Positions 25,851 through 43,873 of a DNA stretch of 64,000 nucleotides are shown here, one piece after another. The first letter of the stretch is position 1, and each line of letters opens with the position of its first letter. The position numbers and the translations under genes are program-made. Under the pieces are notes generated by a model. The model had not been told where the DNA came from, searched no databases, and worked only from the letters and a program-made list of their open reading frames with translations. The DNA comes from Escherichia phage vB_Ec-G1, in the sequence record PQ433349.1. One strand, written 5' to 3'.

Positions 25851-26477
25851 ATGGGAATCCCTTTTGACTTAAAACTTGGGCCAAACAACGACCTCATCAT
25901 GGATGATGGGGATTTGGTCCTCACTACAACCAGAACAGAAATTGCAGCACAAACTCTTGGGATAACTCTGAACACGTATCGTGGGGAGTGGTTTTTAAAT
26001 ACTAACTTCGGTGTTCCTTACTTACAAGAGATTATTGGTGTTGCTAGAAAGAAAGATATTGTAGACAGAATATTTTTAGCAGAGATTGCCAAAAACGTTT
26101 ACATAGATACAATAAACAGTTATAAATCTGCTTATGACATGGACCAACGTTATTATTCAATGACAGTTATGGTCACAGTTGGAGCAGATACAGTAACATC
26201 TATATTCAATACTCAACCTTCTGAAGAGTTTATTTACCCTGAAGCTGGTGAAGACAATGCAGCGATCATTTGTGAAGCTTACAGTATTGTTGAGAATTCG
26301 AATAGACTTTATCGCTTTATCAACTTTGTTGGTTTGCCACGTGATACCTACTCTACTTGGTGGAATGAATGGTCTACAGAGTCAGCAGTGGAAAGAATCA
26401 TGGTTAACGAAAAAGGTGATGCATTAGCTACAAACAATAACTTCGGTATAACAGCTATGACAGGAGTAGAAGAGTAA
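25851..26477 (+). CDS. baseplate wedge protein (putative)
   Basis: 208 aa, position after spike gene. Confidence 0.45.
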   Translation: MGIPFDLKLGPNNDLIMDDGDLVLTTTRTEIAAQTLGITLNTYRGEWFLNTNFGVPYLQEIIGVARKKDIVDRIFLAEIAKNVYIDTINSYKSAYDMDQRYYSMTVMVTVGADTVTSIFNTQPSEEFIYPEAGEDNAAIICEAYSIVENSNRLYRFINFVGLPRDTYSTWWNEWSTESAVERIMVNEKGDALATNNNFGITAMTGVEE

Positions 26478-26950
26478 TGGCAGATTTAACTACGATCAAA
26501 ATTTCTGATCTTACACAAACAACCTCTGTGTCTGATACAGATTTCTTTGTAACAGATCAGGCTGGAATAACAAAGAAAACTTCTTTGAAAGTGCTGTTGA
26601 GTGGTGCAGGGGTAACTAGAAACCGTCTGAATGCACGGGGAACAGTAACTAGCACCCTGGCATTAGATATTAGTTCGGCAGAATATTTTTCAGCAACTTT
26701 ATCTTCTGCAACGTGCACAATTAGTTTTACTAATATTCCAGTAGCAACAAATGCAGTTTTAAACTTTACTTTAGCTTTGCGTCAAGGAAGTGGTGCAAAT
26801 AAAGTCGTATGGCCTTCTTCTGTAAAATGGAGTTTTGGTCGTTCCCCAGTTTTGAGTTATCGTCAAGGTGCAACAGACACTTTTGAGTTTATCAGTTATG
26901 ATAATGGAGCAACTTGGACAGGTAGCTTAGTTTTAGCAGGAGTTATTTAA
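26477..26950 (+). CDS. hypothetical baseplate protein
   Basis: 157 aa, ATGA overlap with upstream gene. Confidence 0.45.
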   Translation: MADLTTIKISDLTQTTSVSDTDFFVTDQAGITKKTSLKVLLSGAGVTRNRLNARGTVTSTLALDISSAEYFSATLSSATCTISFTNIPVATNAVLNFTLALRQGSGANKVVWPSSVKWSFGRSPVLSYRQGATDTFEFISYDNGATWTGSLVLAGVI

Positions 26951-29834: not shown

Positions 29835-31988
29835 ATGAAACAAGCTATATTTACTGTCACGCGAGACAAGAGAGTAAATGCGAGTTCATTTAACTACACG
29901 ACTGTTGACGGAACAGCAGTCGCTGGTAGAGATTATATAGCAAAATCGGGAACACTTGTGTTCCCTGATGATGCTGATTCTGCTACCATTGTGGTTGAAG
30001 TATTTGAACGACCAAAGAACTCAATAGATCTTAACTTCTCCCTCCAAGTTTCAGGGATTAGTCAAAATAACATGATGGTTGAAACGACCATCAATTGTAT
30101 TATAACTACTATCCAAGAAAATACTACTCCAATAACTTGGACTACAAAAGACGTTAAAATGTTCTCTCCTATGTATTGGACAATAGATTCTCAAGCAACG
30201 GAAAGTTGTTCTATTGTATCTCATGGAGACTCTTTTACTGCAAGATTTGTAAACAGAACAACAGCAGGTTTGGCAGGGGTTATCTGGAGCACAGTTGACA
30301 AATATGACCATAAAGGTGTTGGGTATTTACCCCACACAGATTTAAGTTCAGAGAAACTTTGGTTTAAAATGGAAATTAGTCAAAACATGCCAGGTTTTAA
30401 AGAAGAACCTTTGGTGCCAACTTTGACTGTAACTCTCTTGGATAAAAGTGTCCACTATGTTAGTTTAGGATTTTATGCTTCAGATATTTCAGAAGATGGT
30501 AAAACAGCTACAATCAAATTAGATTTTGGTAATATCTTCTCTGGTCCTAATAATGATATTCCTTTGGACATGAGTGCTGTAGATAATATTTTCTTCTCTT
30601 TGATTACAGCAAGGTATGAAGAAATAGAAGAGGTTGTACCTATTGACAGTCAAGAGGCTTGGTTTACTTTCACTCTTCTTGAACCTACCTCTGGTTACAG
30701 TATGATGAAAGTCAGCAACCTTGTCCAGCCTGAACATGATATTCGCATGTGCACATCTTATGATGATATGTATAACCTGACTCCAGAGAGAGTTATTTAT
30801 AATACGTATGCACTAGGTTATCGTGGAATGATTAACCATTACAACGGAATGTCTCACTATTATGAGTTCTCATGGAACGGAACATCTTGGGCTTTAAATA
30901 GATCTGTTTTCCTGAATCCGGCTACAGAAGCTTGGCTTAACAGTTTCCATTCTATAGCTAATGAAAATGGCTACACAATAATGAACTCTTTGAGTTTTGA
31001 GTTGATGAGCACAGTTTGTCCTGTAGAATGGGTTCAACATGATTGGAACGATGCTCTTGCAGCAACAGGTTATGAGCCGCCTAGTTATGTGTTATCTCCA
31101 ACAATTGATGAAGGTATGGAATATTTGCAAAATGTTATTAACAAAATAGCATCTATTTCTCAAGCTAACAATATTCCAGTCGTCATTCAAATTGGTGAAC
31201 CTTGGTGGTGGTATAATACAGCAAGTAAAATGCCTTGTATATATGATTACACTACCAAACTGGCATTCAATACAGAAACAGGCTTATTTGCACAAGATGC
31301 AGGAACAATAGATAATTATAAAACAGGAACGCCATTTGACGAATACTATGCATTTTTGTCTCGTAAACTAGGGTTAAGAGTTACAAAGTTTGCAACAGAT
31401 ACTAGAGCAACTTATCCAGGAGCTAAAGTAACATTGCTTCCATTCTTACCATCAATTATTGGCAACGGGTTGATGGAGAAAGTTAACTTTCCGTCTGATT
31501 ACTACATTCCTGAAGCTTTTGATTTTTACTGTTCGGAGTGTTACGACTGGCTTCTGGAAGGTAAAATGATGAAAGCATTTGATGCAATTACCATACCACA
31601 TGAAAAATTAGGTTTTGAATATTCTGATATTCACTACCTTTCAGGTTTTGTTCCAGATGCTACTCTTGCACCTTTGTATGGCTTTGATCCTAAATCAAAC
31701 TACCGCACATATCTTTGGAAGATGATTATAGGTAACATAGTGTTGAACGCCAATAAGTTTGACGGACTTACACAATATATATGGGCCTATCCTCAAATAA
31801 TGCATGATTCTATCACGGTAGTTAATTCTCAATCCCAAGTTTTCTATATGGGTAACGTGCCTTTGAACGTTTATTTACAGGATATCACTCTTAAACAGGT
31901 AAATGTTGAGATTGCCACCATAAGTGGAATTACATTAGCCACTAAATCTGGAGAAGATTTAGTAACAACACAAAAATTTTATATATAG
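29835..31988 (+). CDS. structural protein with N-terminal Calx-beta-like domain
   Basis: 717 aa; N-terminus NYTTVDGTAVAGRDYIAKSGTLVFPDDADSATIVVEVFE matches Calx-beta pattern as recalled. Confidence 0.5.
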   Translation: MKQAIFTVTRDKRVNASSFNYTTVDGTAVAGRDYIAKSGTLVFPDDADSATIVVEVFERPKNSIDLNFSLQVSGISQNNMMVETTINCIITTIQENTTPITWTTKDVKMFSPMYWTIDSQATESCSIVSHGDSFTARFVNRTTAGLAGVIWSTVDKYDHKGVGYLPHTDLSSEKLWFKMEISQNMPGFKEEPLVPTLTVTLLDKSVHYVSLGFYASDISEDGKTATIKLDFGNIFSGPNNDIPLDMSAVDNIFFSLITARYEEIEEVVPIDSQEAWFTFTLLEPTSGYSMMKVSNLVQPEHDIRMCTSYDDMYNLTPERVIYNTYALGYRGMINHYNGMSHYYEFSWNGTSWALNRSVFLNPATEAWLNSFHSIANENGYTIMNSLSFELMSTVCPVEWVQHDWNDALAATGYEPPSYVLSPTIDEGMEYLQNVINKIASISQANNIPVVIQIGEPWWWYNTASKMPCIYDYTTKLAFNTETGLFAQDAGTIDNYKTGTPFDEYYAFLSRKLGLRVTKFATDTRATYPGAKVTLLPFLPSIIGNGLMEKVNFPSDYYIPEAFDFYCSECYDWLLEGKMMKAFDAITIPHEKLGFEYSDIHYLSGFVPDATLAPLYGFDPKSNYRTYLWKMIIGNIVLNANKFDGLTQYIWAYPQIMHDSITVVNSQSQVFYMGNVPLNVYLQDITLKQVNVEIATISGITLATKSGEDLVTTQKFYI

Positions 31989-31996: not shown

Positions 31997-33619
31997 ATGT
32001 CAACTACAATTACTAATTTACCCGAAACATCAAAAGTTAATGGTTCAGATTACCTGGTTTTAGACCAACCTGATAAGACTGTTAAAAGCACAGTTTCCAA
32101 CTTTCTTGCTGACACTGGGGTGGTTTTAGCCACCCAGTTGAAAGATACAGATGGAGCAGATTTAATAGGCTCACCACATGCCGGAACTCTGGCACAAATG
32201 TTGCCGTGGGTTACTCCAGAGCAATTTGGCGCTGTTGGTGACGGTGTAACAGATGATATTGCGGCTCTTGACGCCTGTATGTCATACGCGAGAGAACGCG
32301 GAGTAGATATCGTATTTTCCAAAACTTATGCCATTTCCAGACCCTACGTAATATATATGGGGCTACGGAGGAACCCACGCCATATAGGTATGGGTAATAT
32401 GGCAAAAATAATCATTACAACTACGGCCACATCTGGGCTTCCGGTTGATTCTTATGAGATTCCTATGGACGTTAACGCGGCTGTTATTGTAGCCGCGATC
32501 ACAGGTACAGGGTATAACCAGCAACCACAGAACTTCCGCTGGGAAAACATCGACATTGATACTACTGTAAATGCAGATTACGGCATGTATACGACAAAAA
32601 TGCAATCAGCATCCATACGGAACTTCAGGACTCATAATTTCAAAACAGGTATCCAAGATAACGGGTCATGGAATACTTTGTATGAAAATATAAAAATGAC
32701 AAAACACAGTATTGTTGGCTTCCGTAAGACTAGGGGTACTAGCACTACTATACGTAACTGTTATGTAGAGCAATCCACCGTAGGGTATCACGTTCGCAGT
32801 GGCTATTCTCAGCTTGAGGGTTGTGCTTGTGATACAAGTACAGATGTATCTTATTGGATTGAAGGCAACCCTGTAGCGTCTAGTAGTGACGATACTTTCT
32901 CTATTGTATCTTGTGGCTCAGAGAACTCAGGCAAAGCTGTTATACGATTAACTGGTACAGTTACACTTAGTGTAAGAAACTTCCAAGCATTTAACTGGGC
33001 GCAGCAGCAAGACCCTATACCTGAATACTTCATGGATTTACAGTCAAATAGCGCTAGTATATCTCTTGAAGATATACGGTATTTAGGTATTAGCGCCGGA
33101 CGAATAAAAGATACTGGGGTTAGTAACAATATAACCATTCGCAACATGACTACACGTGGAAGCGATGTGCGCAGCGGCGATGTACTGCCGAATAGCACCA
33201 AGATTATTGAAATGTCGCGTTCAGGTGTTCGTGTGTCTTCCGGTTATTCCCCTGATGGGATACTTATAGATTTTGACAATCTCTTCTTCACCACAGGGTC
33301 TAGCACTCAGCCAGTAAACTACAGTCCATTATTCAATAAGCAGCGTATATACCGCACGAAGGTGACGGTAACAAGAACATCGGGAACATATGGGAGAGCA
33401 CAAGTAACTTTGCCATTCAATTTTTCTGATACAAGTTATGTAGTGCAACTTACACCCAATGTGTACCATACCGACATAGCTACACATGCTCTCGTGGCTA
33501 CTGTTGGGCCTACAGACAAGACAGTAAACAGTTTTTATGTAAATTTAGGTAGCATCAACGGCAGCAGTACGTGGACTAGTTGTCAGGTTGATGTTACCGT
33601 TTTCGGACTGACTCCATAA
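31997..33619 (+). CDS. tailspike with right-handed beta-helix (pectate-lyase-like) domain, putative depolymerase
   Basis: 540 aa; FGAVGDGVTDDIAALDAC motif near N-terminus of the helix domain; N-terminal virion-attachment-like segment. Confidence 0.7.
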   Translation: MSTTITNLPETSKVNGSDYLVLDQPDKTVKSTVSNFLADTGVVLATQLKDTDGADLIGSPHAGTLAQMLPWVTPEQFGAVGDGVTDDIAALDACMSYARERGVDIVFSKTYAISRPYVIYMGLRRNPRHIGMGNMAKIIITTTATSGLPVDSYEIPMDVNAAVIVAAITGTGYNQQPQNFRWENIDIDTTVNADYGMYTTKMQSASIRNFRTHNFKTGIQDNGSWNTLYENIKMTKHSIVGFRKTRGTSTTIRNCYVEQSTVGYHVRSGYSQLEGCACDTSTDVSYWIEGNPVASSSDDTFSIVSCGSENSGKAVIRLTGTVTLSVRNFQAFNWAQQQDPIPEYFMDLQSNSASISLEDIRYLGISAGRIKDTGVSNNITIRNMTTRGSDVRSGDVLPNSTKIIEMSRSGVRVSSGYSPDGILIDFDNLFFTTGSSTQPVNYSPLFNKQRIYRTKVTVTRTSGTYGRAQVTLPFNFSDTSYVVQLTPNVYHTDIATHALVATVGPTDKTVNSFYVNLGSINGSSTWTSCQVDVTVFGLTP

Positions 33620-33624
33620 AACTA

Positions 33625-33643
33625 AGCCCCCGAATTGGGGGGC
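33625..33643 (+). terminator. GC hairpin after tailspike gene
   Basis: GCCCCC-GAATT-GGGGGGC, no clear T-tract. Confidence 0.4.
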
Positions 33644-33660
33644 ACAATTACGGTAATATT

Positions 33661-34104
33661 ATGAATGAATCAGGTGAACTGCTCCTAGTCAGACTGGAGA
33701 AACGATTGAAGACTCTGTTTGATAATCAGGCAATGGATAGACAGGACCGTGAGAAACTGGAGGAAACTTTGGTAGAACTACGGGATTCAATAAACGATAT
33801 AGTAAATAGACTTAACAGCGTGGAGGATATCTTAGCTAAATCTGAACCTACCATCGAAGAGTTCATCACCATTAAACATAAAGTTGCTGGTGCTGGAATT
33901 TTTGGCAAGTGGGCTTCATTAAGGTTCACACAAGATATGTCCTGCAAGCGCATGTCATCGCCATGTGATAAAATGATGAAAACATATCGTAGCAGGGTTA
34001 ATCTTGTCTTTAATTACTATCGTACTAACTCAAAGTGTTGTCACTACCACTGCAAGCCCCTCTTTGGAGGGGGCTTACTTAGAAAAACAAAGAGGTTGTT
34101 ATGA
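33661..34104 (+). CDS. hypothetical protein
   Basis: 147 aa, weak RBS. Confidence 0.4.
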   Translation: MNESGELLLVRLEKRLKTLFDNQAMDRQDREKLEETLVELRDSINDIVNRLNSVEDILAKSEPTIEEFITIKHKVAGAGIFGKWASLRFTQDMSCKRMSSPCDKMMKTYRSRVNLVFNYYRTNSKCCHYHCKPLFGGGLLRKTKRLL

Positions 34105-34409
34105 ATGAAATGTTCTCCCAAGGTGGTAAAGGTTCAACCGGAATCTTAACCAATAAACAAGCAGTAGCCCGTCACTTTGGAGTTAAACAATCTGAGGTTG
34201 TTTACTTCTCAGTTGGTGTGGATTTGGGTGGGTATAAGGTTGTCTATGATAAGGAGACGCAAAGGGCGTATTCCCTACCTGCTGATATTGCCTCAGGTAT
34301 TACTGCCATTAGTCTTAGTGCTGCTGTACTTGTGCATTCAGCGGGTTCTGTAGACCTTGGGGAATTAGCTGTATATCGTGATTTAAAAAGTAATGAGAAC
34401 GCACCATGA
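34101..34409 (+). CDS. hypothetical protein
   Basis: 102 aa, RBS AAAGAGG. Confidence 0.45.
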   Translation: MNEMFSQGGKGSTGILTNKQAVARHFGVKQSEVVYFSVGVDLGGYKVVYDKETQRAYSLPADIASGITAISLSAAVLVHSAGSVDLGELAVYRDLKSNENAP

Positions 34410-34648
34410 GAAAATTTTTAATAGGTATGTTTTGTACATATCCTGATAATAAAGTCAGTTCTACTAAAGTCTGGAACGCTGTAGGCATGTCGGTTATGAC
34501 AGGCATGTTTATCTTTTTAGGAATAGAAAAAGAAATTCCTGAATGGATGGGTTGGGCTTTTGTTTTCATGATAACCCCTTCTCGCCTCATGAAAAATCTT
34601 ATTGATTTACGTTGGGGCAGATCACAATCTACCAAAGAGGATGACTAA
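34406..34648 (+). CDS. small membrane protein with two predicted TM segments (holin-like topology)
   Basis: 80 aa; hydrophobic stretches VWNAVGMSVMTGMFIFLGI and WMGWAFVFMITPS, charged C-terminus. Confidence 0.4.
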   Translation: MRKFLIGMFCTYPDNKVSSTKVWNAVGMSVMTGMFIFLGIEKEIPEWMGWAFVFMITPSRLMKNLIDLRWGRSQSTKEDD

Positions 34649-36135
34649 TGGACGAATATGGTTTGACAGATGCGGGATTTGTAATCCCGACTTTTGACGA
34701 TGTTCTAAACAATTATATGACAGCAGTAAAAAACACATTTGGTGCAGATGCAGCCACTTCGGAAGATACTGTGATCGGACAACTGTTTAGAATAATTGCA
34801 TACACAGATTACACATTGTGGGAAGGTATGCAAGGTGTTTATAATACTCAAACACTGGATGGTGCAGAAGGTATTTATCTTGATGAAATCTTTTCTAAAC
34901 GCGGTTTCTATCGAGCAGGGGCAGCAGCAAGTACAGGTTATGCATATGTTAAGAGTAATAACAAAGCAGCTTGGACTTATGAGCTAGGCACGGATATTTA
35001 CTTCAACTCTGATAGTGATATGAACTACTATGTTAGCACACCAACTATGTTGAATGCTAAGATTGCAGCTTATCAAATCTCTCGTGCTAATGCAACTGCT
35101 ACAGGTGTTCCAAATATTACTTTTTATGCACAAAGTGCGGTAGATGGAGGACTAAACAGTAAAACACTTGCACCTGGTTCTTCTACATTTATAACCGATC
35201 TTGAAACTTTTATCAAGGCAAATTTAACAGAAGCTGATCGTAGTCTTGTATTTTCTGATTCAGGTAACTTATCAATTGGTTTTACTTCTTTAACTAGTGA
35301 TACTCCAGTGGGACTGGTAACTCCTATTAAATTTTATGCTAGTGTTCCGGTTGGAACCAAGTGGAGTGAGATTCCGGTAGTTGCAGCAGAGAAAGGATAC
35401 AATCCTGTTGGTGTGGAGTCTATTACAGGGATATCTTCTACCTTTACAGGTTATCTTGACAGTGGTAACTTCTATTCATTTTCTCCTGGTCGAGATGTTG
35501 AGACAGACGCAGAATTCCGCTCTCGTTTCAATGACAATGTTGATGAAGCTAACGCAGGGACACGAGCAGCCATTGTGAAAGCTCTGCTACTTACAGATGG
35601 TGTTACTAAGGTGAAGATTTACGATAACCCTACGTTACATGATCAAGAACATGCTCCGGCTATGACTTTCCAGACTATAGTTTATGGAGGAAGTGCTGAA
35701 GAAGTTGCTGAAGTTATTTACAAAACTAAACCAATCAACAGTTTGACACATGGAACAACCAACATAACTGTTACAACGGAAGACGGAGGACAAGAAATTA
35801 TTCGCTTCTCCCCTGGTGCTTCTGCTATGTATTCCGTAAAACTTGTTTATCAAACTGTCAACGGAACAACTTTAAGTGGAACAGAAAAACAAAACATCGT
35901 AGAAGCTTTACAAAACCTGCAAGCTTACTTTGAGTTAGGTTCTTCAGTAACGAACGATCAAATCAAAGGTGTTATTTATGCAGCACTTGCTTTTGGACGC
36001 TTGACTTCTCTTCGTGTTTATGTTAAACTTAATACTGAGGATGACAGTAAATATACAGAGAATAATATAGTTCCTGCTTATAATGTTGTCCCTTCTTTTG
36101 ACCTTGATAACATTTCTTACGAGTATGGAGTGTAA
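34648..36135 (+). CDS. baseplate J-like protein (putative)
   Basis: 495 aa, position and size. Confidence 0.5.
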   Translation: MDEYGLTDAGFVIPTFDDVLNNYMTAVKNTFGADAATSEDTVIGQLFRIIAYTDYTLWEGMQGVYNTQTLDGAEGIYLDEIFSKRGFYRAGAAASTGYAYVKSNNKAAWTYELGTDIYFNSDSDMNYYVSTPTMLNAKIAAYQISRANATATGVPNITFYAQSAVDGGLNSKTLAPGSSTFITDLETFIKANLTEADRSLVFSDSGNLSIGFTSLTSDTPVGLVTPIKFYASVPVGTKWSEIPVVAAEKGYNPVGVESITGISSTFTGYLDSGNFYSFSPGRDVETDAEFRSRFNDNVDEANAGTRAAIVKALLLTDGVTKVKIYDNPTLHDQEHAPAMTFQTIVYGGSAEEVAEVIYKTKPINSLTHGTTNITVTTEDGGQEIIRFSPGASAMYSVKLVYQTVNGTTLSGTEKQNIVEALQNLQAYFELGSSVTNDQIKGVIYAALAFGRLTSLRVYVKLNTEDDSKYTENNIVPAYNVVPSFDLDNISYEYGV

Positions 36136-36137
36136 AA

Positions 36138-36767
36138 ATGGCAGTGAGTGTTGACCATGTAACAACTTGGGCCAGTATCAATGAAGACGTTAAAAACCTT
36201 CTGATTGAAGATTTTAAATCTTCTCCTAACATTGTCAAGCTCCTCTACATCGTATCCAGTGAAAAGCAAAAGATAGATCAGGCAATGATCTATCTTGCTA
36301 AACACCGCTTGATCTCCACAGCCACAGGCAAATACCTAGATATCTTAGGAGAAGAAATGGGGATCGAACGTAATGGCTCTGATGATGAAGAGTATAGAAC
36401 AATATTAAAAATCAGGGCTTACCGCGTAGCCTCATCGGGGACTCGTGGTGACATAATTGATATCTTCGCCCGTTTCACAGGAACCGAGCGTGAAACGCTT
36501 AATACTTACGTAGGTTTGAATAAAACCTTTGATGTGTTTTTCTACAACCTGTGTCTTCAATCTGATCAAGCTTTAGAGCAGTTGCTAAGTGTTTTTCCTA
36601 TTATTAGCAGCTACCGTCTTGGAGCAAAAGCAGGATCAGCTTTTGGTTTTAGTTCTTATTATGCTACCAAACCGCCTCATGGTATTGGTGGTTTAGGTTC
36701 CCTGTACATGGAATCTACTGGGGATGAAACAGGACGCATGTGTACGCTTCTCAAGCAAATAGATTAA
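36138..36767 (+). CDS. baseplate/tail protein (gpI-like, putative)
   Basis: 209 aa following J-like gene. Confidence 0.45.
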   Translation: MAVSVDHVTTWASINEDVKNLLIEDFKSSPNIVKLLYIVSSEKQKIDQAMIYLAKHRLISTATGKYLDILGEEMGIERNGSDDEEYRTILKIRAYRVASSGTRGDIIDIFARFTGTERETLNTYVGLNKTFDVFFYNLCLQSDQALEQLLSVFPIISSYRLGAKAGSAFGFSSYYATKPPHGIGGLGSLYMESTGDETGRMCTLLKQID

Positions 36768-36776
36768 GGAGTTTAA

Positions 36777-37838
36777 ATGGCGAAGCCAATATATTATCCT
36801 GACTGGGCTACACAAACTGTAACGCTCCCAGGAACTTTAAACACAAACAAAATTAGACCTAAAGAAACCATCCGCACAGTTGGTATGGATTATGGTCAAA
36901 TCATGACTTGCGAAGAAATGAACTGGATTCTTAATAATATCGGTTTATGGATTCGTTATTTGGTGGATGACTTTATTCCAACTTTACCTAATACTTACTT
37001 GCCTTTAGTTGGAACTAAGATTACAATGGCAGGCGATGCTACTGGTGAGGCTACTTGGAACGGTGATAAAGAAGTTATTTTATCTATCCAAGTTCAAGAT
37101 AACAGTCATAATCACTTATCGGCAAACATTACAGATGCTACTAGTTCAATAGTAACACCAAATGTGTTGGTAAAACGTGATGCAGGTGGTGCTATTTATG
37201 GTGGTGATGTTTATGTTAATGGTACTTCCACAACAGATCCTGCAACCCTGTTTTTCAAGAACTTTGCAGGACAGACTAATGGTGAGATTTCTGCCGAATA
37301 CCAAAGTGGAGGTCAGCTTTATATTTATCGTAGAAATCCTAGCACAGGTAGTGTAGCCGCAGGTGTTCGTTTATATGATGCAGGTTATGTTCTAATAGAC
37401 AATCCAAGATCAAACAATGGACAAGACACTTCTAACGGAAATGCTTTAGTTCGTTTAGATTATCTGAACTCTCGTTTGACTTCCCTTCAGAACACATTGC
37501 AGACGAATATTAACACTGTTCAAAACAACTTGAATAATGTTAACAACAACCTCTCTTCTCGTATAAACAATGTAGAAAGTAATCATCAAAGTCAGATTAC
37601 AAATAACTACAACTATGCTAACGGAACCTTTGTAAGAGATATTCGTTATACTAGCCAAGGTGTGTATTATCCACCAGGGAACGAGGTTTCTTGGACTTAT
37701 ATCTGTTCTTCTGGTTATGTTCTTTCTGGTATTATCGTACAGGAAACAGGACGTAGCTCTGCGGATAACATCGGTGGGGTTTACTTCAAACGCCTCCAGC
37801 GCAACGTTAACGGAAACTGGTACGATATTGGAGGCTAA
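36777..37838 (+). CDS. tail fibre protein
   Basis: 353 aa, Asn/Thr/Ser-rich, followed by assembly-chaperone-like gene. Confidence 0.55.
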   Translation: MAKPIYYPDWATQTVTLPGTLNTNKIRPKETIRTVGMDYGQIMTCEEMNWILNNIGLWIRYLVDDFIPTLPNTYLPLVGTKITMAGDATGEATWNGDKEVILSIQVQDNSHNHLSANITDATSSIVTPNVLVKRDAGGAIYGGDVYVNGTSTTDPATLFFKNFAGQTNGEISAEYQSGGQLYIYRRNPSTGSVAAGVRLYDAGYVLIDNPRSNNGQDTSNGNALVRLDYLNSRLTSLQNTLQTNINTVQNNLNNVNNNLSSRINNVESNHQSQITNNYNYANGTFVRDIRYTSQGVYYPPGNEVSWTYICSSGYVLSGIIVQETGRSSADNIGGVYFKRLQRNVNGNWYDIGG

Positions 37839-38384
37839 ATGATATTTACAAACTTTAAAAAATATATTCCTGAAGACCCTGAAATAAAAGAATTGGTAGA
37901 AGCAGAGAACATTCTTTTTCTTCGTTGCGATCAAGGTTACGATTGGTATGATTTACGTAGCACAGAATTCAATAACGATAAAATGAAAGTCGTTTTTGAC
38001 GATCAAAATCGTATTGTGTTTTGGAACACTGATCCTACATTACTTTGCCCTGAAGATCTTTCTATAGCACAAGTGGACTTTAATATAGACACTTTTGAGG
38101 ATATTAGAAACAAGGTTCTGGATTTAGAAACTTTGACTCTTAAGGATAAAGAGTATTCCCGTGAAGAGTTGATGACACAAGCTAGTGCAAAAATTCGCTC
38201 TTTACAAGAAACAGCGGTAGCACTTATAACACCTTTACAGTATGCTAAAGATTTAGAAATGGCTACTGAAGACGAATTAGCTTATCTTAAAAATCTTCAA
38301 GTTTATGTAGTTAAACTAAATCGTGTTCCGCTTCAAAAAGACTATCCTTACGCTATAGATTGGCCTACATTACCGACAGAATAA
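37839..38384 (+). CDS. tail fibre assembly protein (putative)
   Basis: 181 aa immediately downstream of fibre gene. Confidence 0.5.
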   Translation: MIFTNFKKYIPEDPEIKELVEAENILFLRCDQGYDWYDLRSTEFNNDKMKVVFDDQNRIVFWNTDPTLLCPEDLSIAQVDFNIDTFEDIRNKVLDLETLTLKDKEYSREELMTQASAKIRSLQETAVALITPLQYAKDLEMATEDELAYLKNLQVYVVKLNRVPLQKDYPYAIDWPTLPTE

Positions 38385-38393
38385 GGGATCACT

Positions 38394-38729
38394 ATGGAAT
38401 TTCAAGAAGCATGGGGACTTGCAAAGGATGCAATAATCCCTTTAATCGGAGTCATCTGGTTCTTTTTCAAACAAAAAATGGATAAATTCGGCTCTGATCT
38501 TGAGGAAATGGAGGAGAAAAGTCGAGAGCTAGAGAAGAAGTTGGTCTTTGTTGAATCAACTTATGCAACTAAAGCCGAACTTACCCAGATGCTAAATCAA
38601 ATTAACTCTACATTAATGGCAAATAATAACACCCTTGAGCAAAAAATTGAAAAGATTATGGACCTCAAGAATGCGACTATCCAAATGATGCTAGATGACA
38701 TAGTTAAACGTACACAGAATAAGGGGTAA
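38394..38729 (+). CDS. membrane-anchored coiled-coil protein, unknown function
   Basis: 111 aa; N-terminal TM AIIPLIGVIWFFF then charged helical region. Confidence 0.45.
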   Translation: MEFQEAWGLAKDAIIPLIGVIWFFFKQKMDKFGSDLEEMEEKSRELEKKLVFVESTYATKAELTQMLNQINSTLMANNNTLEQKIEKIMDLKNATIQMMLDDIVKRTQNKG

Positions 38730-38732
38730 TTA

Positions 38733-41700
38733 ATGGCAACATTCCCAACATATCCAGCAACGTCTCTCGAACAGGGCGTAGACCTGGTTATTTTCTCATC
38801 TAACCAACTCCATGATGTTATTAATGGAAGTGCTACAGAGAGTATTGAAACAGAATCAGGGTTGATACCAACCCTGAGAAAAGCCCTTGTTGACAACTTT
38901 TTCTTTAAAAGCCCATTGGATTGGGCGCAAGGCACAAACGAAACAGTTTTTAACCAACTTCGTTATTTCCAGAATGGAGTATTGAGCGGTTATTACTATG
39001 CCCCTAACGCTACATTGGTTAACCCAATCCCTATGCAAGGGACTCCAGTAGGAGATAACAACTGGGTATTGTGGGGACTGAAAACAGAACAATTAGCAAC
39101 AGAAGTCACCCCGTGGGTATACTCTGGTGCAACGGGTTATGAAACAGTAATTAGTCCTCCTTACATCTTTGATAGTGCTATTGTTACGATCAATGGTGTT
39201 ATTCAGGTTCTGGGGGAAGCTTTCCGTATAGAAGATAGTAAGATCATCCTATCTGAACCTTTGGGACACGATCCTGCAACAGGACTGCCAAACAAGCTTT
39301 TTGCTTACATTGGTAAAATCGTAGCTTCCGCAGATACAGATCCTAACCTAGAGAACCGTCTTGTCAGTTTAGAAACAAAAACGGAAGAACTAACAGAAAG
39401 CATGGATAAAGTCCCTCTGCAAACTATTGCTCGTAAATATGGTTTGTTAGATGATGAGGTGGCTTACGCAACAGCAGGTCAATCGTTAACAGGGATTAAA
39501 GCTCTGTATGATCCAGTAGCACAGTCTTCCTACACATTACCTCCTAACATCACAGGAACTTTAACATCCTTGTCTGTTTCTGGAGTAATGACTTATTCTG
39601 GGGGGTCTGTAGATCTTTCTGCACTAGCTGTTGAACGTGGACAGTTTGTTCATTTGCCTACAAGCTTTGGTAATAACGTAACTCTGACAGCTAAAAATCA
39701 GACGATTGGACGTGGTGCTGGTCGTTATCGTTGGGCTGGAAGTTTACCAAAAAGTATTTTGGCCTCCGATACATTGGAGACAAGTGGTGGATTAGGTCCA
39801 AATGCATGGGTTCTGACCAATACAGAAGGACTGTTAACCCCTCGTGGTGGAACATACAACGATTTATTCGATGTTGTCTACTTGTCAGAATTTGCTAACA
39901 ACACAACAACATATACCACACCAGAAGCAGCTTTCCAAGCGGCACTGTTAGCAGCAAAAGCTTCGAAAAGCAAGATTCTCGATGCTTACGGTTGCGATAT
40001 GACTTTCACGACAAGCTCTTTTGATATTCAAGGTATCACTTTGCGTGGGGGTGTGTTCCGTGGTCAACGCGACTATCGTGTGCAAAATGCTACAGTAGAA
40101 GGCACAACTTTCCGTAACTCTCGTGTTATGTATTGGGGTGGTGCTGTGCGCATGTTCGATTGTTTGTGGGACGGTGCTCCTCGCGCAGGTCAAGTTGGTA
40201 GCTTGGTATTCCAAGGCAACCCAATATCAGGTACTTTTGAAATTGATAATTGTACTTTTAAAAACGGGTTGTATGGCATCCTTCAACAAGGAACAGGGGA
40301 ACCAGTAACACGTGGTGTCTTCCGTAACCTTACCTTCATGGACATGCAAGGTGATGCAATAGAACTGAACGTCATCAATAAACATTATGACGATGGTTGT
40401 GTGATTGAGAATATTTACCTGTCTAATATCGATGGGACTAACGCTCCTATTCCTCTGTCCAACTGGGGTATCGGTATCGGTGTAGCTGGTAAAGGACCAT
40501 ATGGTTACGGAATCCCTGATGATCAATATTGCAAGAATATTACAATTCGTAACGTTTTTGCAAAACGTTGTCGTCAGATTGTCCACGTAGAAGTTGGTCG
40601 TAATATCTCTATCGAAAACATTCATGGCGATCCAGACCAGACCGTATCTGTTGGGACAGGTTTGGCAACTGGCGCAGTTGTAATGTACGGAAGTAAAGAT
40701 TTTACGATTGACGGTGTTTACGGAGAGCCTAAAACAGACGGTAGCACACTTGCAAGTAATATCCGTATGATTTATTTGGAGTGGGGAACTAACGCAGTTC
40801 TGGACGGAGAGGGTAATCCGGTAGTTCCGGCACAGGGTAGACCTTCAAACCCATGCTTTAACTATTCTGTTCGTAATATTCATACCAAAACTGGACGTGT
40901 TTTTGCGGGAGTTTCCGCTGGGCCAGGTTATGAAAACAGAGTTAGCTTTGAAAATATTCGTTGCGCTGCATTGCAGTTGTTCGGTATAGCTTCTTGGCTT
41001 TCAATGTCTAACATCACCTGTAATATCTTCGATTGTGTTGGTCAACCTGAATCTGGTCCAGGGACATTTTATGATGGATTCTTCCGTAGAGAAAAATCTG
41101 TTCTTGAAATGGTTAACGTAAACTGTTACCCAGATGGCAAGACGATGGTTACTGGTCGTCCACAGTGGAGCCGTTGCCGTTACTCGGATATTCATCGTGT
41201 CAACTGTAATGTTGAAGCTAATATGTATACCAATATCGCAGGTGGTATTGGAGCTATTGTAGGGACAACGGGCAAAGTTTATTACTTAGAGCCTAATCCT
41301 AGTCGAAACATTGATGGAATGCATTTCCCAACAGGGAAAGAGTTTGACAAAGGGGATATGATAGTCAAGGCGGATAATACGTTCTTCCTTGTAACAACAA
41401 GTGGGGCATATATTCCAGATATCCCAGCTTTCGGTATTCGAGCTACACAGGCAGGAGATACCTTCCTGACACAGAACTTGACTCCTAACGGGACAGCAAC
41501 AAATGCTTCTTGGTTGTATCATTACCCTCTGTCAGCAGGGACACGTATCCGTATTCCTGGTGCTGGCGTAGGTGGAGCAGATTTGGACACAGTTATTACT
41601 CGTGCACCTTATCAAGATAATGATACGTGGACTAACCCAGTTAAAATAGACATTGCAGATCCAATTGTAACGCCTACAAGTGCTGGAGTTAGAATTAAAA

Positions 41701-41786
41701 CCATACCTAATGATTCCAGTAATGTTTCTGTAGGTAATACTGCGGTTATTCGCCCAACGCCAGTAGTAGATGTGCCAACAACCTAA
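38733..41786 (+). CDS. large tailspike/fibre with parallel beta-helix repeats (second putative depolymerase)
   Basis: 1017 aa; repeated beta-helix-like rungs (NCTFKNGLYGIL..., NLTFMDMQGDAIELNV..., IENIYLSNIDG..., NITIRNVFAKRCRQIVHVEVG...). Confidence 0.6.
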   Translation: MATFPTYPATSLEQGVDLVIFSSNQLHDVINGSATESIETESGLIPTLRKALVDNFFFKSPLDWAQGTNETVFNQLRYFQNGVLSGYYYAPNATLVNPIPMQGTPVGDNNWVLWGLKTEQLATEVTPWVYSGATGYETVISPPYIFDSAIVTINGVIQVLGEAFRIEDSKIILSEPLGHDPATGLPNKLFAYIGKIVASADTDPNLENRLVSLETKTEELTESMDKVPLQTIARKYGLLDDEVAYATAGQSLTGIKALYDPVAQSSYTLPPNITGTLTSLSVSGVMTYSGGSVDLSALAVERGQFVHLPTSFGNNVTLTAKNQTIGRGAGRYRWAGSLPKSILASDTLETSGGLGPNAWVLTNTEGLLTPRGGTYNDLFDVVYLSEFANNTTTYTTPEAAFQAALLAAKASKSKILDAYGCDMTFTTSSFDIQGITLRGGVFRGQRDYRVQNATVEGTTFRNSRVMYWGGAVRMFDCLWDGAPRAGQVGSLVFQGNPISGTFEIDNCTFKNGLYGILQQGTGEPVTRGVFRNLTFMDMQGDAIELNVINKHYDDGCVIENIYLSNIDGTNAPIPLSNWGIGIGVAGKGPYGYGIPDDQYCKNITIRNVFAKRCRQIVHVEVGRNISIENIHGDPDQTVSVGTGLATGAVVMYGSKDFTIDGVYGEPKTDGSTLASNIRMIYLEWGTNAVLDGEGNPVVPAQGRPSNPCFNYSVRNIHTKTGRVFAGVSAGPGYENRVSFENIRCAALQLFGIASWLSMSNITCNIFDCVGQPESGPGTFYDGFFRREKSVLEMVNVNCYPDGKTMVTGRPQWSRCRYSDIHRVNCNVEANMYTNIAGGIGAIVGTTGKVYYLEPNPSRNIDGMHFPTGKEFDKGDMIVKADNTFFLVTTSGAYIPDIPAFGIRATQAGDTFLTQNLTPNGTATNASWLYHYPLSAGTRIRIPGAGVGGADLDTVITRAPYQDNDTWTNPVKIDIADPIVTPTSAGVRIKTIPNDSSNVSVGNTAVIRPTPVVDVPTT

Positions 41787-41848: not shown

Positions 41849-43873
41849 ATGAATTTAACAAGACCTAATAGTGCGATAGCCGATCTGGTAGAAGCTACTT
41901 ATCGAAAACGTCGCAGCTTTGAGGCAGGTTTTACATTACGTAATTCCCGTGAAGTTTTGCTGTTAGCAGCAGAAGGGAATTATTACCAATGGAAAGGAAC
42001 TTTTCCTAAAGTAGTTCCAGCAAACTCTACGCCAGCCACCACAGGTGGTATTTCTTCCCTTGCATGGCAAAGTGTTGGGACCGCTGATGATATAGCAATT
42101 ATCAATGCCAAGTTTACGGCAATGCAGCAACAGATTGATGATCTGTCGGAAACAATACCTGAAGCTGGTAAATCGGCTTATCAGATCGCACTTGATAATG
42201 GTTTTGTTGGAACAGAAGCACAATGGCTTGCTTCTTTGAAAGGGGATACTGGTGCTCAACTTAATATTAAAGGATCATTAGCAAGCACTAGTGAACTACC
42301 ATCCACAGGTAACGTTGCAGGGGATGGTTATATCGTAGGTGATGTAATCTACGCTTGGGATGGTTCTGTTTGGAAACTTATTTCTTCTCTTGGGCCAGAA
42401 GGTAAATCAGCTTACGAGGTATGGTTGGCAGATGGTAATACAGGATCTGTTTATGATTTTCTTACCTCTATAAAAGGTGATAAAGGCGATGTTGGTCCTA
42501 CAGGGCCACAGGGAGCACCTGGTGTTAACGCCAACGGTTTTGATTATCGTGGGGATTTGCCTTCTACAAGTAACTTACCACAACCTAACTCTGAAAACGT
42601 AAGCCAAGCTTATTCTATCAATGGTAATCTTTATGTCTCTAATGGGACAGCTTGGGTCAACATGGGTAATATTGTTGGTCCTCAAGGTCCACAAGGTGAG
42701 GCAGGTAAAGACGGTCTAGATGGAACAGATGGGGATGAAGGGAAATCTGCATATCAAAGTTGGCTGGATGCTGGTAATGAAGGGACAGAAGTAGATTTTA
42801 TTGCCTCACTTAAAGGTCCAAAAGGAGACAAGGGTGATCAAGGAGAGCGAGGTCCACAAGGTGAACTAGGTCCACAAGGACCAGTGGGTGCAACAGGATC
42901 AGGCTTAGAGATTATCGGGGTTCTGAACAGTGAAGCTGAACTTCCTCCTACTGGAGAAGTAGGTGATGCATATAAAATTAATAATGATTTGTATGTTTGG
43001 GTTCAAGATGCTACGGAATGGATGAATGTTGGCAGTCTTGGAGGAACATCAATTACAGCTAAAGGTCATGTTCCGAACAGTGAAGCTCTCCCTGTTTATA
43101 ATAACTATGGTGATGCCTACTTAACTGAAGATACTAGTAATCTTTACATCTATACCTACGATCAAGACACCAATTCCGCATCTTTTGTTGACATGGGAAG
43201 TATTAAAGGCGACAAAGGTGAAAAAGGGGATAAAGGAGATAAGGGTGATCCTGGAACAAACGGAACCAACGGTACTAATGGGACCAACGGTAAGGACGGC
43301 GCACAGTGGTTTGTAGCAACAACTAATCCAGTCGCAGGTGATGGTGTTATCAATGATTACGCTTTCAATACTACCACTGGGGCAGTGTTTAAGAAAACAG
43401 ATTCTTCTACGTGGACACTTATAGGAACTCTTCCTAGTATACCAGAAGCCCCTCAAGATGGCTTGACGTATGGTCGTTCTGATGGAAACTGGATCGAAAT
43501 ATCAGGATCAGATCCTACGGAAGCTATAACACCAACTAGAGTTACAGCAGGTTTCATGGAACTTGAAACAACTACTGCCAACTCTGGAGCATCTTGGACT
43601 CCTTCTGGAACTTCCAATATGTATGTTGTTACAGTAACTGATGCTCTGACAGTTGGAGCATGGCCTGGTGTCACTGGCTCTACAAAACCTAAAGCGTTTT
43701 CAGCAATGATTTATTTGATTCAAGATACAACGGGACACACGGTTACACTAGATGCGTCTTATGGAGCACTAAATGATACAGAAATAGCAACTGCTGCTAA
43801 CGCAGTAACAATTTTGCAATTAACGTATCCTGGTGTGGGTGATATCGTGGACATGGTTGTTGTAACACGATAA
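41849..43873 (+). CDS. collagen-like tail fibre protein
   Basis: 674 aa; Gly-X-Y runs (GPQGPQGEAGKDGLDGTDGDEGK; GDKGEKGDKGDKGDPGTNGTNGTNGTNGKDG) and three ~30-aa repeats GKSAYxxWLxxGxxG...SLKG. Confidence 0.7.
   Translation: MNLTRPNSAIADLVEATYRKRRSFEAGFTLRNSREVLLLAAEGNYYQWKGTFPKVVPANSTPATTGGISSLAWQSVGTADDIAIINAKFTAMQQQIDDLSETIPEAGKSAYQIALDNGFVGTEAQWLASLKGDTGAQLNIKGSLASTSELPSTGNVAGDGYIVGDVIYAWDGSVWKLISSLGPEGKSAYEVWLADGNTGSVYDFLTSIKGDKGDVGPTGPQGAPGVNANGFDYRGDLPSTSNLPQPNSENVSQAYSINGNLYVSNGTAWVNMGNIVGPQGPQGEAGKDGLDGTDGDEGKSAYQSWLDAGNEGTEVDFIASLKGPKGDKGDQGERGPQGELGPQGPVGATGSGLEIIGVLNSEAELPPTGEVGDAYKINNDLYVWVQDATEWMNVGSLGGTSITAKGHVPNSEALPVYNNYGDAYLTEDTSNLYIYTYDQDTNSASFVDMGSIKGDKGEKGDKGDKGDPGTNGTNGTNGTNGKDGAQWFVATTNPVAGDGVINDYAFNTTTGAVFKKTDSSTWTLIGTLPSIPEAPQDGLTYGRSDGNWIEISGSDPTEAITPTRVTAGFMELETTTANSGASWTPSGTSNMYVVTVTDALTVGAWPGVTGSTKPKAFSAMIYLIQDTTGHTVTLDASYGALNDTEIATAANAVTILQLTYPGVGDIVDMVVVTR

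What the first reader, a model, noticed from the sequence alone, without database searches (positions are those of the whole stretch)
31997..41786. At least two beta-helix tailspikes plus extra fibres imply a multi-specificity tail
31997-33619 has the FGAVGDGVTDDIAALDAC entry motif of pectate-lyase-like beta-helices, and 38733-41786 shows repeated parallel beta-helix rungs. Together with the 353 aa fibre, the collagen-like fibre, the LRR protein and the 958 aa possible glycosidase, the tail carries an unusually large set of receptor-binding or depolymerase candidates, consistent with targeting several capsule or O-antigen types.
Basis: partly seen in the sequence, partly recalled or inferred. 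Interest (0 to 1): 0.55.

Follow-up and report, generated by a model that had tools for sequence, protein, structure and literature searches.

The report
Known multi-spike phage tail, new spike
This is the tail gene cluster of a phAPEC8/phi92-type E. coli phage, a group already known for carrying several receptor-binding spikes and fibres at once; the only new item is one spike whose sugar-binding head was swapped in from an unrelated small phage.

Summary
ORF 31997-33619 (540 aa) and ORF 38733-41786 (1017 aa) are both right-handed beta-helix tailspikes, by structure prediction plus fold search. The 1017-aa protein is the orthologue of the solved phi92 gp150 colanidase. The other listed candidates exist: a 353-aa short fibre, a collagen-like fibre, an RCC1/Ig/LRR-like protein and a 958-aa protein.

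The window is a Phapecoctavirus, 97-98% nucleotide identity to Ro121c4YLVW, EF1-1 and DE16, and syntenic with phi92 gp137-gp151.

All tail proteins are at least 97.6% identical to known phages, with two exceptions:
- the 540-aa spike;
- the C-terminal 306 aa of the 890-aa protein, an allele shared with about 35 phages.

The spike is a chimera. A conserved anchor (to nt 32167) is joined to a head (from nt 32152) that is 86% identical in DNA to a spike of a G7C-like podophage. A fragment of the donor's downstream gene came along. No GenBank phage carries this head on this anchor.

The anchor occurs with about 49 different heads, so this is a known hypervariable slot. Substrates and enzyme activity were not testable here. 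Low interest.

The parts
26477..26950 (+). 157-aa small tail fibre protein, phi92 gp140 homologue
   Evidence: 83% aa identity to phi92 gp140 and 100% to Ro121c4YLVW; synteny.
26950..29826 (+). 958-aa conserved tail protein, phi92 gp141 homologue. A glycosidase function is only hinted.
   Evidence: 83% identity to phi92 gp141. PHROG 2871 'tail protein'. No Pfam or PDB match for the single sequence. A family profile gives weak hits to six-hairpin glycosidase, GH76 and cellobiose 2-epimerase, E 0.005-0.06. Listed as 'glycosidase' in PMC5380687, citing Schwarzer 2012.
29835..31988 (+). 717-aa lateral-fibre component, phi92 gp142 homologue: Calx-beta + NCTSP_N + TIM barrel (N4 Gp64-like)
   Evidence: Pfam PF23845 E 5e-79, PF23844, PF03160. 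PDB 9lc0 Gp64 E 8.5e-30. BASEL paper: predicted poly-GlcNAc deacetylase domain shared with N4 Gp64, proposed ECA recognition.
31997..32167 (+). N-terminal anchor of the 540-aa spike (about aa 1-57), Phapecoctavirus backbone, phi92 gp143 slot
   Evidence: DNA 96-97% identical to Ro121c4YLVW and ZCKP1 up to 32167. aa 1-48..69 are 84-98% identical to 72 spike clusters with other heads. 67% identity to phi92 gp143 aa 1-93.
32152..33619 (+). Imported beta-helix head plus C-terminal beta-sandwich of the 540-aa spike
   Evidence: DNA 86% identical to the spike gene of the 72.5-kb G7C-like contig L005. Protein 86-91% identical to the 655-aa Tail_spike_N spikes P0002, P0003 and P0005, of which P0005 lies on the 72.5-kb G7C-like contig L005. 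64-67% to P22-like spikes including IME10. AF2 and Foldseek show a beta-helix tailspike fold.
33626..33643 (.). GC-rich hairpin immediately after the spike stop codon (terminator-like; inside the imported segment)
   Evidence: GCCCCCGAATTGGGGGGC seen and scored as terminator-like on the minus strand. A conserved terminator-like motif downstream of RBD genes is described in PMC10408124; whether it is the same sequence was not checked.
33661..34104 (+). 147-aa chimeric, frameshifted ORF: recombination scar
   Evidence: aa 1-84 are 84-90% identical to the small gene just downstream of the spike in G7C-like phages. A 26-bp deletion relative to sister contig L006, which has a 95-aa ORF, shifts the frame. 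The tail of the ORF runs through a hairpin at 34056-34078. Backbone homology resumes at 33927.
34101..34409 (+). 102-aa free-standing tailspike TD1 (docking) domain with no head
   Evidence: aa 1-94 match CBA120 TSP1 aa 1-95, E 7e-49, about 90% identical. 43% identity to aa 230-302 of the window's own 1017-aa spike. DNA 88.6% identical to the 5' end of the G7C-like spike gene. Present as a 102-aa ORF in Ro121c4YLVW, ZCKP1 and L006. No tblastn match in the phi92 tail locus and no such gene annotated there.
34406..34648 (+). 80-aa membrane protein, phi92 gp144 homologue
   Evidence: 81% identity to phi92 gp144; hydrophobic segments in the translation.
34648..36767 (+). Baseplate wedge proteins (495 aa and 209 aa), phi92 gp145 and gp146 homologues; attachment platform for the fibres
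   Evidence: Pfam Baseplate_J. 80-87% identity to phi92. phi92 cryo-EM: fibres I and III attach to gp145 (PMC13450770).
36777..38384 (+). 353-aa short tail fibre (phi92 gp147 = fibre III homologue) and its 181-aa assembly chaperone
   Evidence: PHROG 4465. PDB 9cuy short tail fibre E 5e-23. Pfam Caudo_TAP. 80% identity to gp147 over aa 1-231.
38394..38729 (+). 111-aa protein, phi92 gp149 homologue, labelled 'lipoprotein' in databases
   Evidence: PHROG 15210. The translation has no cysteine, so no lipobox is possible.
38733..41786 (+). 1017-aa beta-helix tailspike, phi92 gp150 (colanidase) orthologue with inserted TD1/TD2 domains
   Evidence: aa 1-199 are 79% identical to gp150. aa 226-364 match the CBA120 TSP1/3/4 and G7C gp63.1 N-terminal domains, E 1e-26 to 1e-30. 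aa 426-1000 match 6e0v, E 1e-79. AF2 and Foldseek: 6e0v E 7.5e-38. 100% identical to a 169-member cluster.
41849..43873 (+). 674-aa collagen-like fibre, phi92 gp151 homologue, with an N-terminal Tail_spike_N (TD2-like) domain
   Evidence: Pfam PF18668 E 1e-19 and Collagen E 3e-12. 59% identity to gp151. PDB hits to the N-domains of spikes.
43915..46587 (+). 890-aa protein found in Phapecoctavirus and the proposed 'Wecvirus' but absent from Justusliebigvirus: RCC1-like propeller + Big_2 + LRR-like C-terminus. The C-terminal 306 aa are allelic.
   Evidence: Pfam. aa 585-890 have no match in Ro121c4YLVW but are 95-99.7% identical in about 35 phages. 'TfpM1', absent from Justusliebigvirus (PMC12695924).

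Best explanation
The region is the baseplate-periphery and receptor-binding module of a Phapecoctavirus, a phAPEC8/phi92-like myophage. It encodes the lineage's known multivalent adsorption apparatus.

By homology with phi92:
- The wedge proteins (gp145/146 homologues) carry three sets of six trimeric appendages.
- The 353-aa fibre (gp147, fibre III) makes the terminal contact, probably with LPS core.
- The 1017-aa beta-helix spike (gp150 orthologue) cleaves colanic acid.
- The 540-aa beta-helix spike sits in the gp143 slot at the tip of fibre I. It is the exchangeable, strain-specific element and most likely binds and depolymerises an O-antigen or capsule.
- The conserved 958-aa, 717-aa (N4-Gp64-like, putative deacetylase), 674-aa (collagen-like) and 890-aa proteins supply further, mostly invariant, glycan-binding surfaces or fibre arms.

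The 540-aa spike arose by homologous recombination. A conserved anchor is joined, within a linker shared by both parents (nt 32152-32167), to a head imported from a G7C-like podophage. The first 84 codons of the donor's downstream gene came with it, and the right-hand junction lies near nt 33915-33927.

Shown here: the two folds, the synteny, the mosaic junctions and the allelic diversity of the slot. Inferred: virion location, trimerisation, enzymatic activity and substrates.
For: Lineage and synteny: 97-98% nucleotide identity to Phapecoctavirus genomes. Gene-by-gene identity to Ro121c4YLVW of at least 97.6%, and 59-87% to phi92 gp137-gp151.

Folds: 540-aa model and Foldseek. 1017-aa versus 6e0v by sequence and by structure.

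Mosaic:
- Protein junctions and DNA junctions.
- Donor-type contig L005 is an N4/G7C-like genome of 72.5 kb with the spike, then the small gene.
- The frameshifted scar ORF.

Hypervariable slot: 72 cluster representatives share the anchor and carry about 49 head clusters, including endosialidase, SGNH, GDPD, BNR and beta-helix types.

Literature:
- Multivalent phi92 tail, gp143 at the tip of fibre I, gp147 as fibre III, gp150 as colanic-acid hydrolase (PMC13450770).
- 'Swiss army knife', and conserved fibres probably targeting conserved glycans (PMC8594841).
- Conserved motifs flanking RBDs as cross-genus recombination hotspots (PMC10408124).
Against: - No direct evidence that each protein is in the virion or active. 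Even in phi92, fibre II is unassigned and gp141, gp142, gp150 and gp151 are not placed in the density.
- The 540-aa head has no characterised close homologue: the best PDB sequence match to the head is E 8e-8, and the best named phage is IME10 at 67% with no annotation. Its substrate is unknown, and a binding-only role or a different chemistry is possible.
- The models are monomers with a disordered anchor (aa 1-68, pLDDT below 50).
- The Pfam PF12708 score is marginally below the gathering threshold.
- The glycosidase assignment for the 958-aa protein and the LRR assignment for the 890-aa protein rest on sub-threshold hits.
Confidence: 0.85

Rival explanations
1. The tail is functionally close to monovalent. 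Only the 540-aa spike determines strain specificity. The conserved large proteins (958, 717, 674 and 890 aa) are mainly structural arms or scaffolds of the fibres, or bind one shared conserved glycan, rather than being independent receptor-binding or depolymerase activities.
For: All of them are at least 97.6% identical across the genus. The BASEL authors argue that these phages may be 'effectively monovalent' on K-12 and that conserved fibres target conserved glycans. The phi92 cryo-EM sees only three fibre sets and describes fibre I as an arm-like scaffold with the enzyme at its tip. The 958-aa protein has no above-threshold enzyme signature.
Against: gp150 has demonstrated colanidase activity (cited), and the 1017-aa protein keeps that catalytic domain. 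The 717-aa protein has a strong TIM-barrel match to N4 Gp64, predicted to be a deacetylase. phi92 itself infects encapsulated and non-encapsulated E. coli as well as Salmonella.
Confidence: 0.3
2. The 540-aa protein is a beta-helix spike that binds its glycan without cleaving it, or modifies it (for example as a lyase or an esterase in a groove), so 'depolymerase' would be the wrong label.
For: No catalytic residues could be assigned. Identity to solved spikes is 9-17% in the structural alignments. The family includes hydrolases, lyases (LKA1 gp49, PL6) and epimerases among the structural neighbours.
Against: Nearly all characterised phage beta-helix tailspikes with this architecture are endoglycosidases or lyases (established knowledge). 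The head is conserved at 64-91% identity across podophage and P22-like phage spikes that occupy the classical tailspike position.
Confidence: 0.2
3. The 540-aa ORF is a defective, recently rearranged spike that no longer assembles: it is the shortest allele and lacks the Tail_spike_N/TD2 domain of most alleles.
For: Most alleles on this anchor are 580-920 aa and carry PF18668; this one does not. The adjacent ORF is visibly decayed.
Against: The reading frame is intact, with an AGGAG ribosome-binding site 5 nt upstream. A confident full beta-helix and C-terminal domain are predicted. A 98%-identical 540-aa copy is kept in two independent assemblies. A 541-aa, 39%-identical relative with the same architecture exists on another large contig. 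phi92 gp143 also lacks PF18668.
Confidence: 0.07

Closest known systems
Multivalent adsorption apparatus of Escherichia phage phi92 (Justusliebigvirus, Stephanstirmvirinae), gp140-gp151
   Same: Same gene order and homologues for the hub, spike, sheath initiator, gp140, gp141, gp142, the gp143 slot, gp144-gp149, gp150 and gp151, at 59-87% aa identity. Same logic: several co-expressed spikes and fibres on one baseplate.
   Different: - The gp143 slot holds a 540-aa beta-helix spike instead of the 918-aa endosialidase.
- The gp150 orthologue is 1017 aa rather than 804 aa, with inserted TD1/TD2 domains.
- There are two extra small ORFs: the scar ORF and the orphan TD1.
- An 890-aa RCC1/Ig/LRR-like protein replaces the short gp152.
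Phapecoctavirus genomes (phAPEC8, Ro121c4YLVW, ZCKP1, EF1-1, DE16)
   Same: 97-98% nucleotide identity over the tail module. All tail proteins are at least 97.6% identical, including a 99.9% identical 1017-aa spike.
   Different: The head of the gp143-slot spike: Ro121c4YLVW has a 762-aa spike that shares only aa 1-69. The 890-aa C-terminal allele also differs from Ro121c4YLVW.
phi92 gp150 colanidase tailspike (PDB 6e0v/6e0w)
   Same: The catalytic beta-helix and C-terminal region of the 1017-aa protein match at E 1e-79, and the structural match is E 7.5e-38. The N-terminal 199 aa are 79% identical.
   Different: About 225 residues (aa 201-425) replace gp150's short neck. They include CBA120 TSP1-like TD1/TD2 domains. 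Activity was not tested.
G7C-like (Gamaleyavirus) and Kuttervirus (CBA120) branched tailspike systems
   Same: - The head of the 540-aa spike is 86-91% identical to the 655-aa Tail_spike_N spikes P0002, P0003 and P0005; P0005 lies on a G7C-like contig.
- TD1/TD2 docking domains occur in the 102-aa, 1017-aa and 674-aa proteins.
- RBD exchange happens at conserved flanking motifs.
   Different: The host virion is a 150-kb myophage with a phi92-type baseplate. No gp10-like XD branching domains were identified here. The 540-aa spike uses the gp143-type anchor rather than TD1/TD2.
P22-like (Lederbergvirus) tailspikes, e.g. the unannotated spike of phage IME10
   Same: The head domain is 64-67% identical over aa 44-538, with the same beta-helix tailspike fold class as Sf6 and HK620.
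   Different: The N-terminal module is the P22 Head_binding domain (PF09008) in those phages, versus the gp143-type anchor here.

Membership tests
Right-handed parallel beta-helix phage tailspikes (540-aa protein) | Parallel beta-helix central domain | tested here: met
   AF2 pLDDT above 85 over most of aa 70-430 with short repeated strands. The top hits of the Foldseek PDB search are almost all beta-helix tailspikes or related beta-helix enzymes.
Right-handed parallel beta-helix phage tailspikes (540-aa protein) | Curated Pfam pectate-lyase-like signature (PF12708) at or above the gathering score | tested here: inconclusive
   26.4 bits against a cut-off of 27, E 6.9e-6, covering the cap motif only.
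Right-handed parallel beta-helix phage tailspikes (540-aa protein) | N-terminal virion-attachment module separate from the head | tested here: met
   aa 1-48..69 are 84-98% identical to the N-termini of 72 spike clusters in about 150-kb phages, and 67% identical to phi92 gp143.
Right-handed parallel beta-helix phage tailspikes (540-aa protein) | Homotrimer with glycan-cleaving or glycan-binding activity | not testable with these tools
   Only a monomer was modelled; there is no biochemical data.
phi92 gp150-type colanidase tailspikes (1017-aa protein) | Sequence homology across the catalytic domain of the solved enzyme | tested here: met
   aa 426-1000 versus 6e0v aa 95-623, E 1e-79, 257 bits. 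PHROG 6117 'colanic acid degradation', E 1e-282.
phi92 gp150-type colanidase tailspikes (1017-aa protein) | Same fold as 6e0v | tested here: met
   Foldseek rank 1 is 6e0v, E 7.5e-38, TM 0.67 normalised to the target.
phi92 gp150-type colanidase tailspikes (1017-aa protein) | Orthologous position between the gp149 and gp151 homologues, with a shared N-terminal attachment domain | tested here: met
   Synteny. aa 1-199 are 79% identical to gp150.
phi92 gp150-type colanidase tailspikes (1017-aa protein) | Hydrolysis of colanic acid | not testable with these tools
   Activity is reported for phi92 gp150 only (cited in PMC13450770).
phi92-type multivalent adsorption apparatus (Stephanstirmvirinae) | Conserved tail and baseplate locus with several RBP genes in the phi92 order | tested here: met
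phi92-type multivalent adsorption apparatus (Stephanstirmvirinae) | Several distinct fibre and spike sets co-displayed on one virion | not testable with these tools
   Known from cryo-EM of phi92. No particle data exist for this phage.
CBA120/G7C branched tailspike complex | TD1/TD2 N-terminal docking domains | tested here: met
   102-aa ORF versus TSP1 aa 1-95, E 7e-49. 1017-aa protein aa 226-364. 674-aa protein aa 12-77, PF18668.
CBA120/G7C branched tailspike complex | gp10-like XD2/XD3 branching domains that receive the TD1 domains | not tested
   No dedicated search was run. No XD-type hit appeared in the Pfam or PDB results for the window proteins examined. The locus is therefore not filed as a member of this system.

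The most novel reading that the evidence does not exclude
The gp143 slot may be a dedicated landing pad for foreign spike heads. Its left homology arm would be the shared linker at nt 32152-32167. Its right arm would be the remnants of a G7C-type spike locus kept in the backbone: the decayed downstream-gene fragment and the free-standing 102-aa TD1 gene. That TD1 gene is about 90% identical to CBA120 TSP1 and 88.6% identical in DNA to the 5' end of a G7C-like spike gene.

On this reading the orphan TD1 protein would not be junk. It would be either a headless adaptor or plug occupying a docking site in the fibre complex, or a retained recombination arm that lets a 150-kb myophage sample the spike repertoire of N4-like, Ackermannviridae and P22-like phages.
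Probability: 0.2. Interest if true: 0.45.

Novelty: new member of a known kind. Interest (0 to 1): 0.2.

Why it matters
It adds little to biology. The multivalent tail of phi92/phAPEC8-like phages and the modular exchange of tailspike heads across phage families are both established.

The practical value is modest:
- The window gives a cleanly resolved natural example of a podophage spike head grafted onto a myophage anchor, with both crossover points and a hitch-hiking gene fragment visible. That is a useful template for engineering the host range of Phapecoctavirus therapeutic candidates.
- It marks the 540-aa head as an uncharacterised specificity absent from cultured Phapecoctavirus records.
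- The orphan TD1 gene and the still-unassigned fibre II of phi92 are small open questions that this locus could help address.

Tried and rejected
- Single-sequence Pfam and PDB searches for the 958-aa protein found nothing meaningful. An exhaustive representative search found a 188-member family. Its profile gave only sub-threshold (alpha/alpha)6-enzyme hints against the PDB, and scanning its members one by one against Pfam found nothing meaningful. 'Glycosidase' therefore stays a hint.
- A search of complete E. coli genomes for a prophage donor of the spike head found only three weak matches at 68-73% nucleotide identity. A recent prophage origin and a serotype inference were both dropped.
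- The 147-aa ORF was considered as a real accessory gene, for example a chaperone or a holin-like protein. This was rejected: a 26-bp deletion frameshift relative to the sister contig, and read-through of a hairpin, show that its C-terminal 63 aa are out of frame.
- The 'lipoprotein' label of the 111-aa protein was considered as a possible superinfection-exclusion lipoprotein. The protein has no cysteine.
- The promoter scan of the region was no better than shuffled sequence: 33 sites against 40 +/- 6.5 expected, so it is uninformative.
- Schwarzer et al. 2012 could not be read directly. Its content is cited only through papers that quote it.

Full report
**What the window is.** Megablast of 31997-41786 and of the wider tail module 24000-47500 finds 230-238 phage records. 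The best are Phapecoctavirus genomes (Ro121c4YLVW, EF1-1, DE16, ZCKP1) at 97-98% identity covering 80-92% of the query. The uncovered part is essentially the 540-aa gene and its 3' flank. The annotated relative Ro121c4YLVW and phi92 (Justusliebigvirus, same subfamily) show the same gene order from baseplate hub to the last fibre gene. The window's tail proteins are 97.6-100% identical to Ro121c4YLVW and 59-87% identical to phi92 gp137-gp151. The only exceptions are the 540-aa spike and the C-terminal third of the 890-aa protein.

**Checking the observation: the 540-aa protein.**
- ORF coordinates are exact, and FGAVGDGVTDDIAALDAC lies at aa 77-94.
- Pfam PF12708 matches this cap (E 6.9e-6, 26.4 bits, cut-off 27), and the cap of phi92 gp150 matches aa 34-116 (E 3.4e-11).
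- An AlphaFold2 model built on 23 homologues has mean pLDDT 78. It is confident from residue 70. It consists of short repeated strands to about aa 425, followed by a beta-sandwich at aa 449-540.
- Foldseek against the PDB returns only beta-helix tailspikes and depolymerases at the top: Acinetobacter phage spikes 24qi and 6eu4, LKA1 gp49, Det7, K2-2 TSP, CBA120 TSP4 and Sf6.

**Checking the observation: the 1017-aa protein.**
- aa 426-1000 match the solved phi92 gp150 (6e0v) at E 1e-79.
- aa 226-364 match the N-terminal domains of CBA120 TSP1/3/4 and G7C gp63.1 at E 1e-26 to 1e-30.
- aa 1-199 are 79% identical to gp150's own N-terminus.
- The model (pLDDT 71; above 80 for most of aa 380-770) has 6e0v, 'colanidase tailspike gp150', as its best structural hit (E 7.5e-38). 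CBA120, HK620 and Sf6 spikes and PL6 lyases follow.

Both beta-helix claims are therefore confirmed.

**The other candidates.**
- *353-aa protein:* the gp147 (fibre III) homologue, followed by a Caudo_TAP chaperone.
- *674-aa protein:* carries a Tail_spike_N domain and real collagen repeats.
- *890-aa protein:* has an RCC1-like propeller, a Big_2 domain and a C-terminus with only a weak BspA-type LRR signal, E 0.0035.
- *958-aa protein (gp141 homologue):* no above-threshold family or structure match. A profile of its 188-member family touches (alpha/alpha)6 glycosidases and epimerases only at E 0.005-0.06 over about 35 positions. A review lists gp141 and gp142 as 'glycosidase', citing the 2012 phi92 paper.
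It has a strong TIM-barrel match to N4 Gp64 (Pfam E 5e-79; PDB 9lc0 E 8.5e-30). [quoted passage not shown]

**What is already known.** Several papers, all citing Schwarzer et al. 2012, describe phi92 and its relatives as carrying a 'multivalent adsorption apparatus' or 'nanosized Swiss army knife' of co-expressed spikes and fibres.
- The 2026 cryo-EM study places gp145/146 as wedges and gp147 as fibre III. It infers gp143 at the tip of the L-shaped fibre I, cites gp150 as a colanic-acid hydrolase and leaves fibre II unassigned.
- The BASEL paper notes that most of the locus is invariant and probably targets conserved glycans, and that only a few genes are allelic.

**What is specific to this window: a chimeric spike.**
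- *Protein level.* aa 1-48..69 are 84-98% identical to the N-termini of many spikes from about 150-kb phages. aa 25-540 are 86-91% identical to 655-aa spikes with a Tail_spike_N domain. aa 44-538 are 64-67% identical to P22-like spikes with a Head_binding domain, including an unannotated gene of phage IME10.
- *Donor type.* The 655-aa relative lies on a 72.5-kb contig with N4/G7C-like gene content.
- *DNA level.* The Phapecoctavirus backbone runs to nt 32167. G7C-like homology runs from 32152 to 33639 (86%) and again from 33643 to 33913 (88.6%). That second stretch is the first part of the small gene that follows the spike in G7C-like phages. Backbone homology resumes at 33927.
- *Junctions.* The left crossover lies in a 16-nt overlap that encodes the conserved ...DGADLIG... 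linker. This fits the conserved motifs flanking receptor-binding domains that were proposed as cross-genus recombination hotspots.
- *Scar.* The hitch-hiking gene fragment is a 95-aa ORF in a 98%-identical sister contig. In the window it carries a 26-bp deletion that shifts the frame and produces the 147-aa ORF 33661-34104, which reads through a hairpin. It is a recombination scar, not a credible gene.

**How common the allele is.** No record in the phage collection combines this head with this anchor. Two SRA-derived assemblies do. The anchor is found on 72 cluster representatives whose heads fall into about 49 clusters, including endosialidases, SGNH esterases, GDPD, BNR and various beta-helices. 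This is one more allele in a hypervariable slot.

**Side observations.**
- ORF 34101-34409 encodes a 102-aa protein that is about 90% identical to the first 94 residues (TD1 domain) of CBA120 TSP1 (E 7e-49) and 43% identical to aa 230-302 of the window's own 1017-aa spike.
- With 35 nt of upstream sequence, the same ORF is 88.6% identical in DNA to the 5' end of the G7C-like spike gene.
- It is conserved as a headless ORF in Phapecoctavirus. tblastn finds no match to it in the phi92 tail locus, where no such gene is annotated.
- In Kuttervirus, TD1 docks onto XD3 domains, and headless TSP4 genes exist in Limestonevirus. No XD partner was identified here, so its role as adaptor, plug, remnant or recombination arm is open.
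- The 111-aa 'lipoprotein' has no cysteine.
- The C-terminal 306 aa of the 890-aa protein form a second allelic module.

**Mechanism and confidence.**
- *Best explanation (about 0.85 for the overall picture):* a phi92-type multivalent baseplate with three main elements. The 353-aa fibre makes the terminal contact. The 1017-aa spike removes colanic acid. The exchangeable 540-aa spike recognises, and probably cleaves, a strain-specific O-antigen or capsule. The conserved 717/958/674/890-aa proteins add invariant glycan-binding or scaffold functions.
- *The 540-aa protein as a true depolymerase:* about 0.6.
- *Main rival:* the tail is effectively close to monovalent, with most large proteins serving as scaffolds.

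**Verdict.** Interest 0.2.

Noticed in passing
window 34101-34409 (+): A free-standing 102-aa ORF that is about 90% identical to the TD1 docking domain (aa 1-95) of CBA120 tailspike TSP1, with no receptor-binding head. It is conserved in Phapecoctavirus, and tblastn finds no match in the phi92 tail locus. Its DNA, with 35 nt upstream, is 88.6% identical to the 5' end of a G7C-like spike gene.
   Followed up: partly
window 33661-34104 (+): The 147-aa ORF is a chimera. The first 84 codons come from the gene downstream of the spike in G7C-like podophages. A 26-bp deletion relative to sister contig L006 (95-aa ORF) then shifts the frame, and the ORF reads through a hairpin at 34056-34078. It is probably a recombination scar or pseudogene.
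   Followed up: yes
window 45667-46587 (+), C-terminal 306 aa of the 890-aa protein: A second allelic module in the tail locus. It has no detectable match in the Ro121c4YLVW orthologue but is 95-99.7% identical in about 35 other phages (ESCO5, REC, SF1-1). It has weak BspA-type LRR similarity only, and distant similarity (33%) to tail proteins of about 37-kb Klebsiella phages.
   Followed up: partly
window 29835-31988 (+): The 717-aa phi92 gp142 homologue has Calx-beta, NCTSP_N and a TIM barrel homologous to phage N4 Gp64 (PDB 9lc0). The literature proposes it as an ECA-directed deacetylase fibre component.
   Followed up: partly
window 38394-38729 (+): The 111-aa protein labelled 'lipoprotein' in PHROGs and RefSeq has no cysteine, so it cannot be a lipoprotein. 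It looks like an N-terminal transmembrane helix followed by a coiled coil.
   Followed up: partly
window 46589-46612 and 46601-47446 (+) / 46652-47578 (-): A strong bidirectional terminator-like hairpin marks the switch from the plus-strand tail module to minus-strand genes. The 281-aa plus-strand TTG ORF overlapping the 308-aa minus-strand ORF has a low-complexity translation and is almost certainly spurious.
   Followed up: no
L005 7996-8649 (-), G7C-like contig: The G7C-like relative carries a 217-aa minus-strand gene between its spike and the small downstream gene. That gene is absent from the window's imported segment, so the actual donor lacked it or it was deleted during or after transfer.
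   Followed up: no
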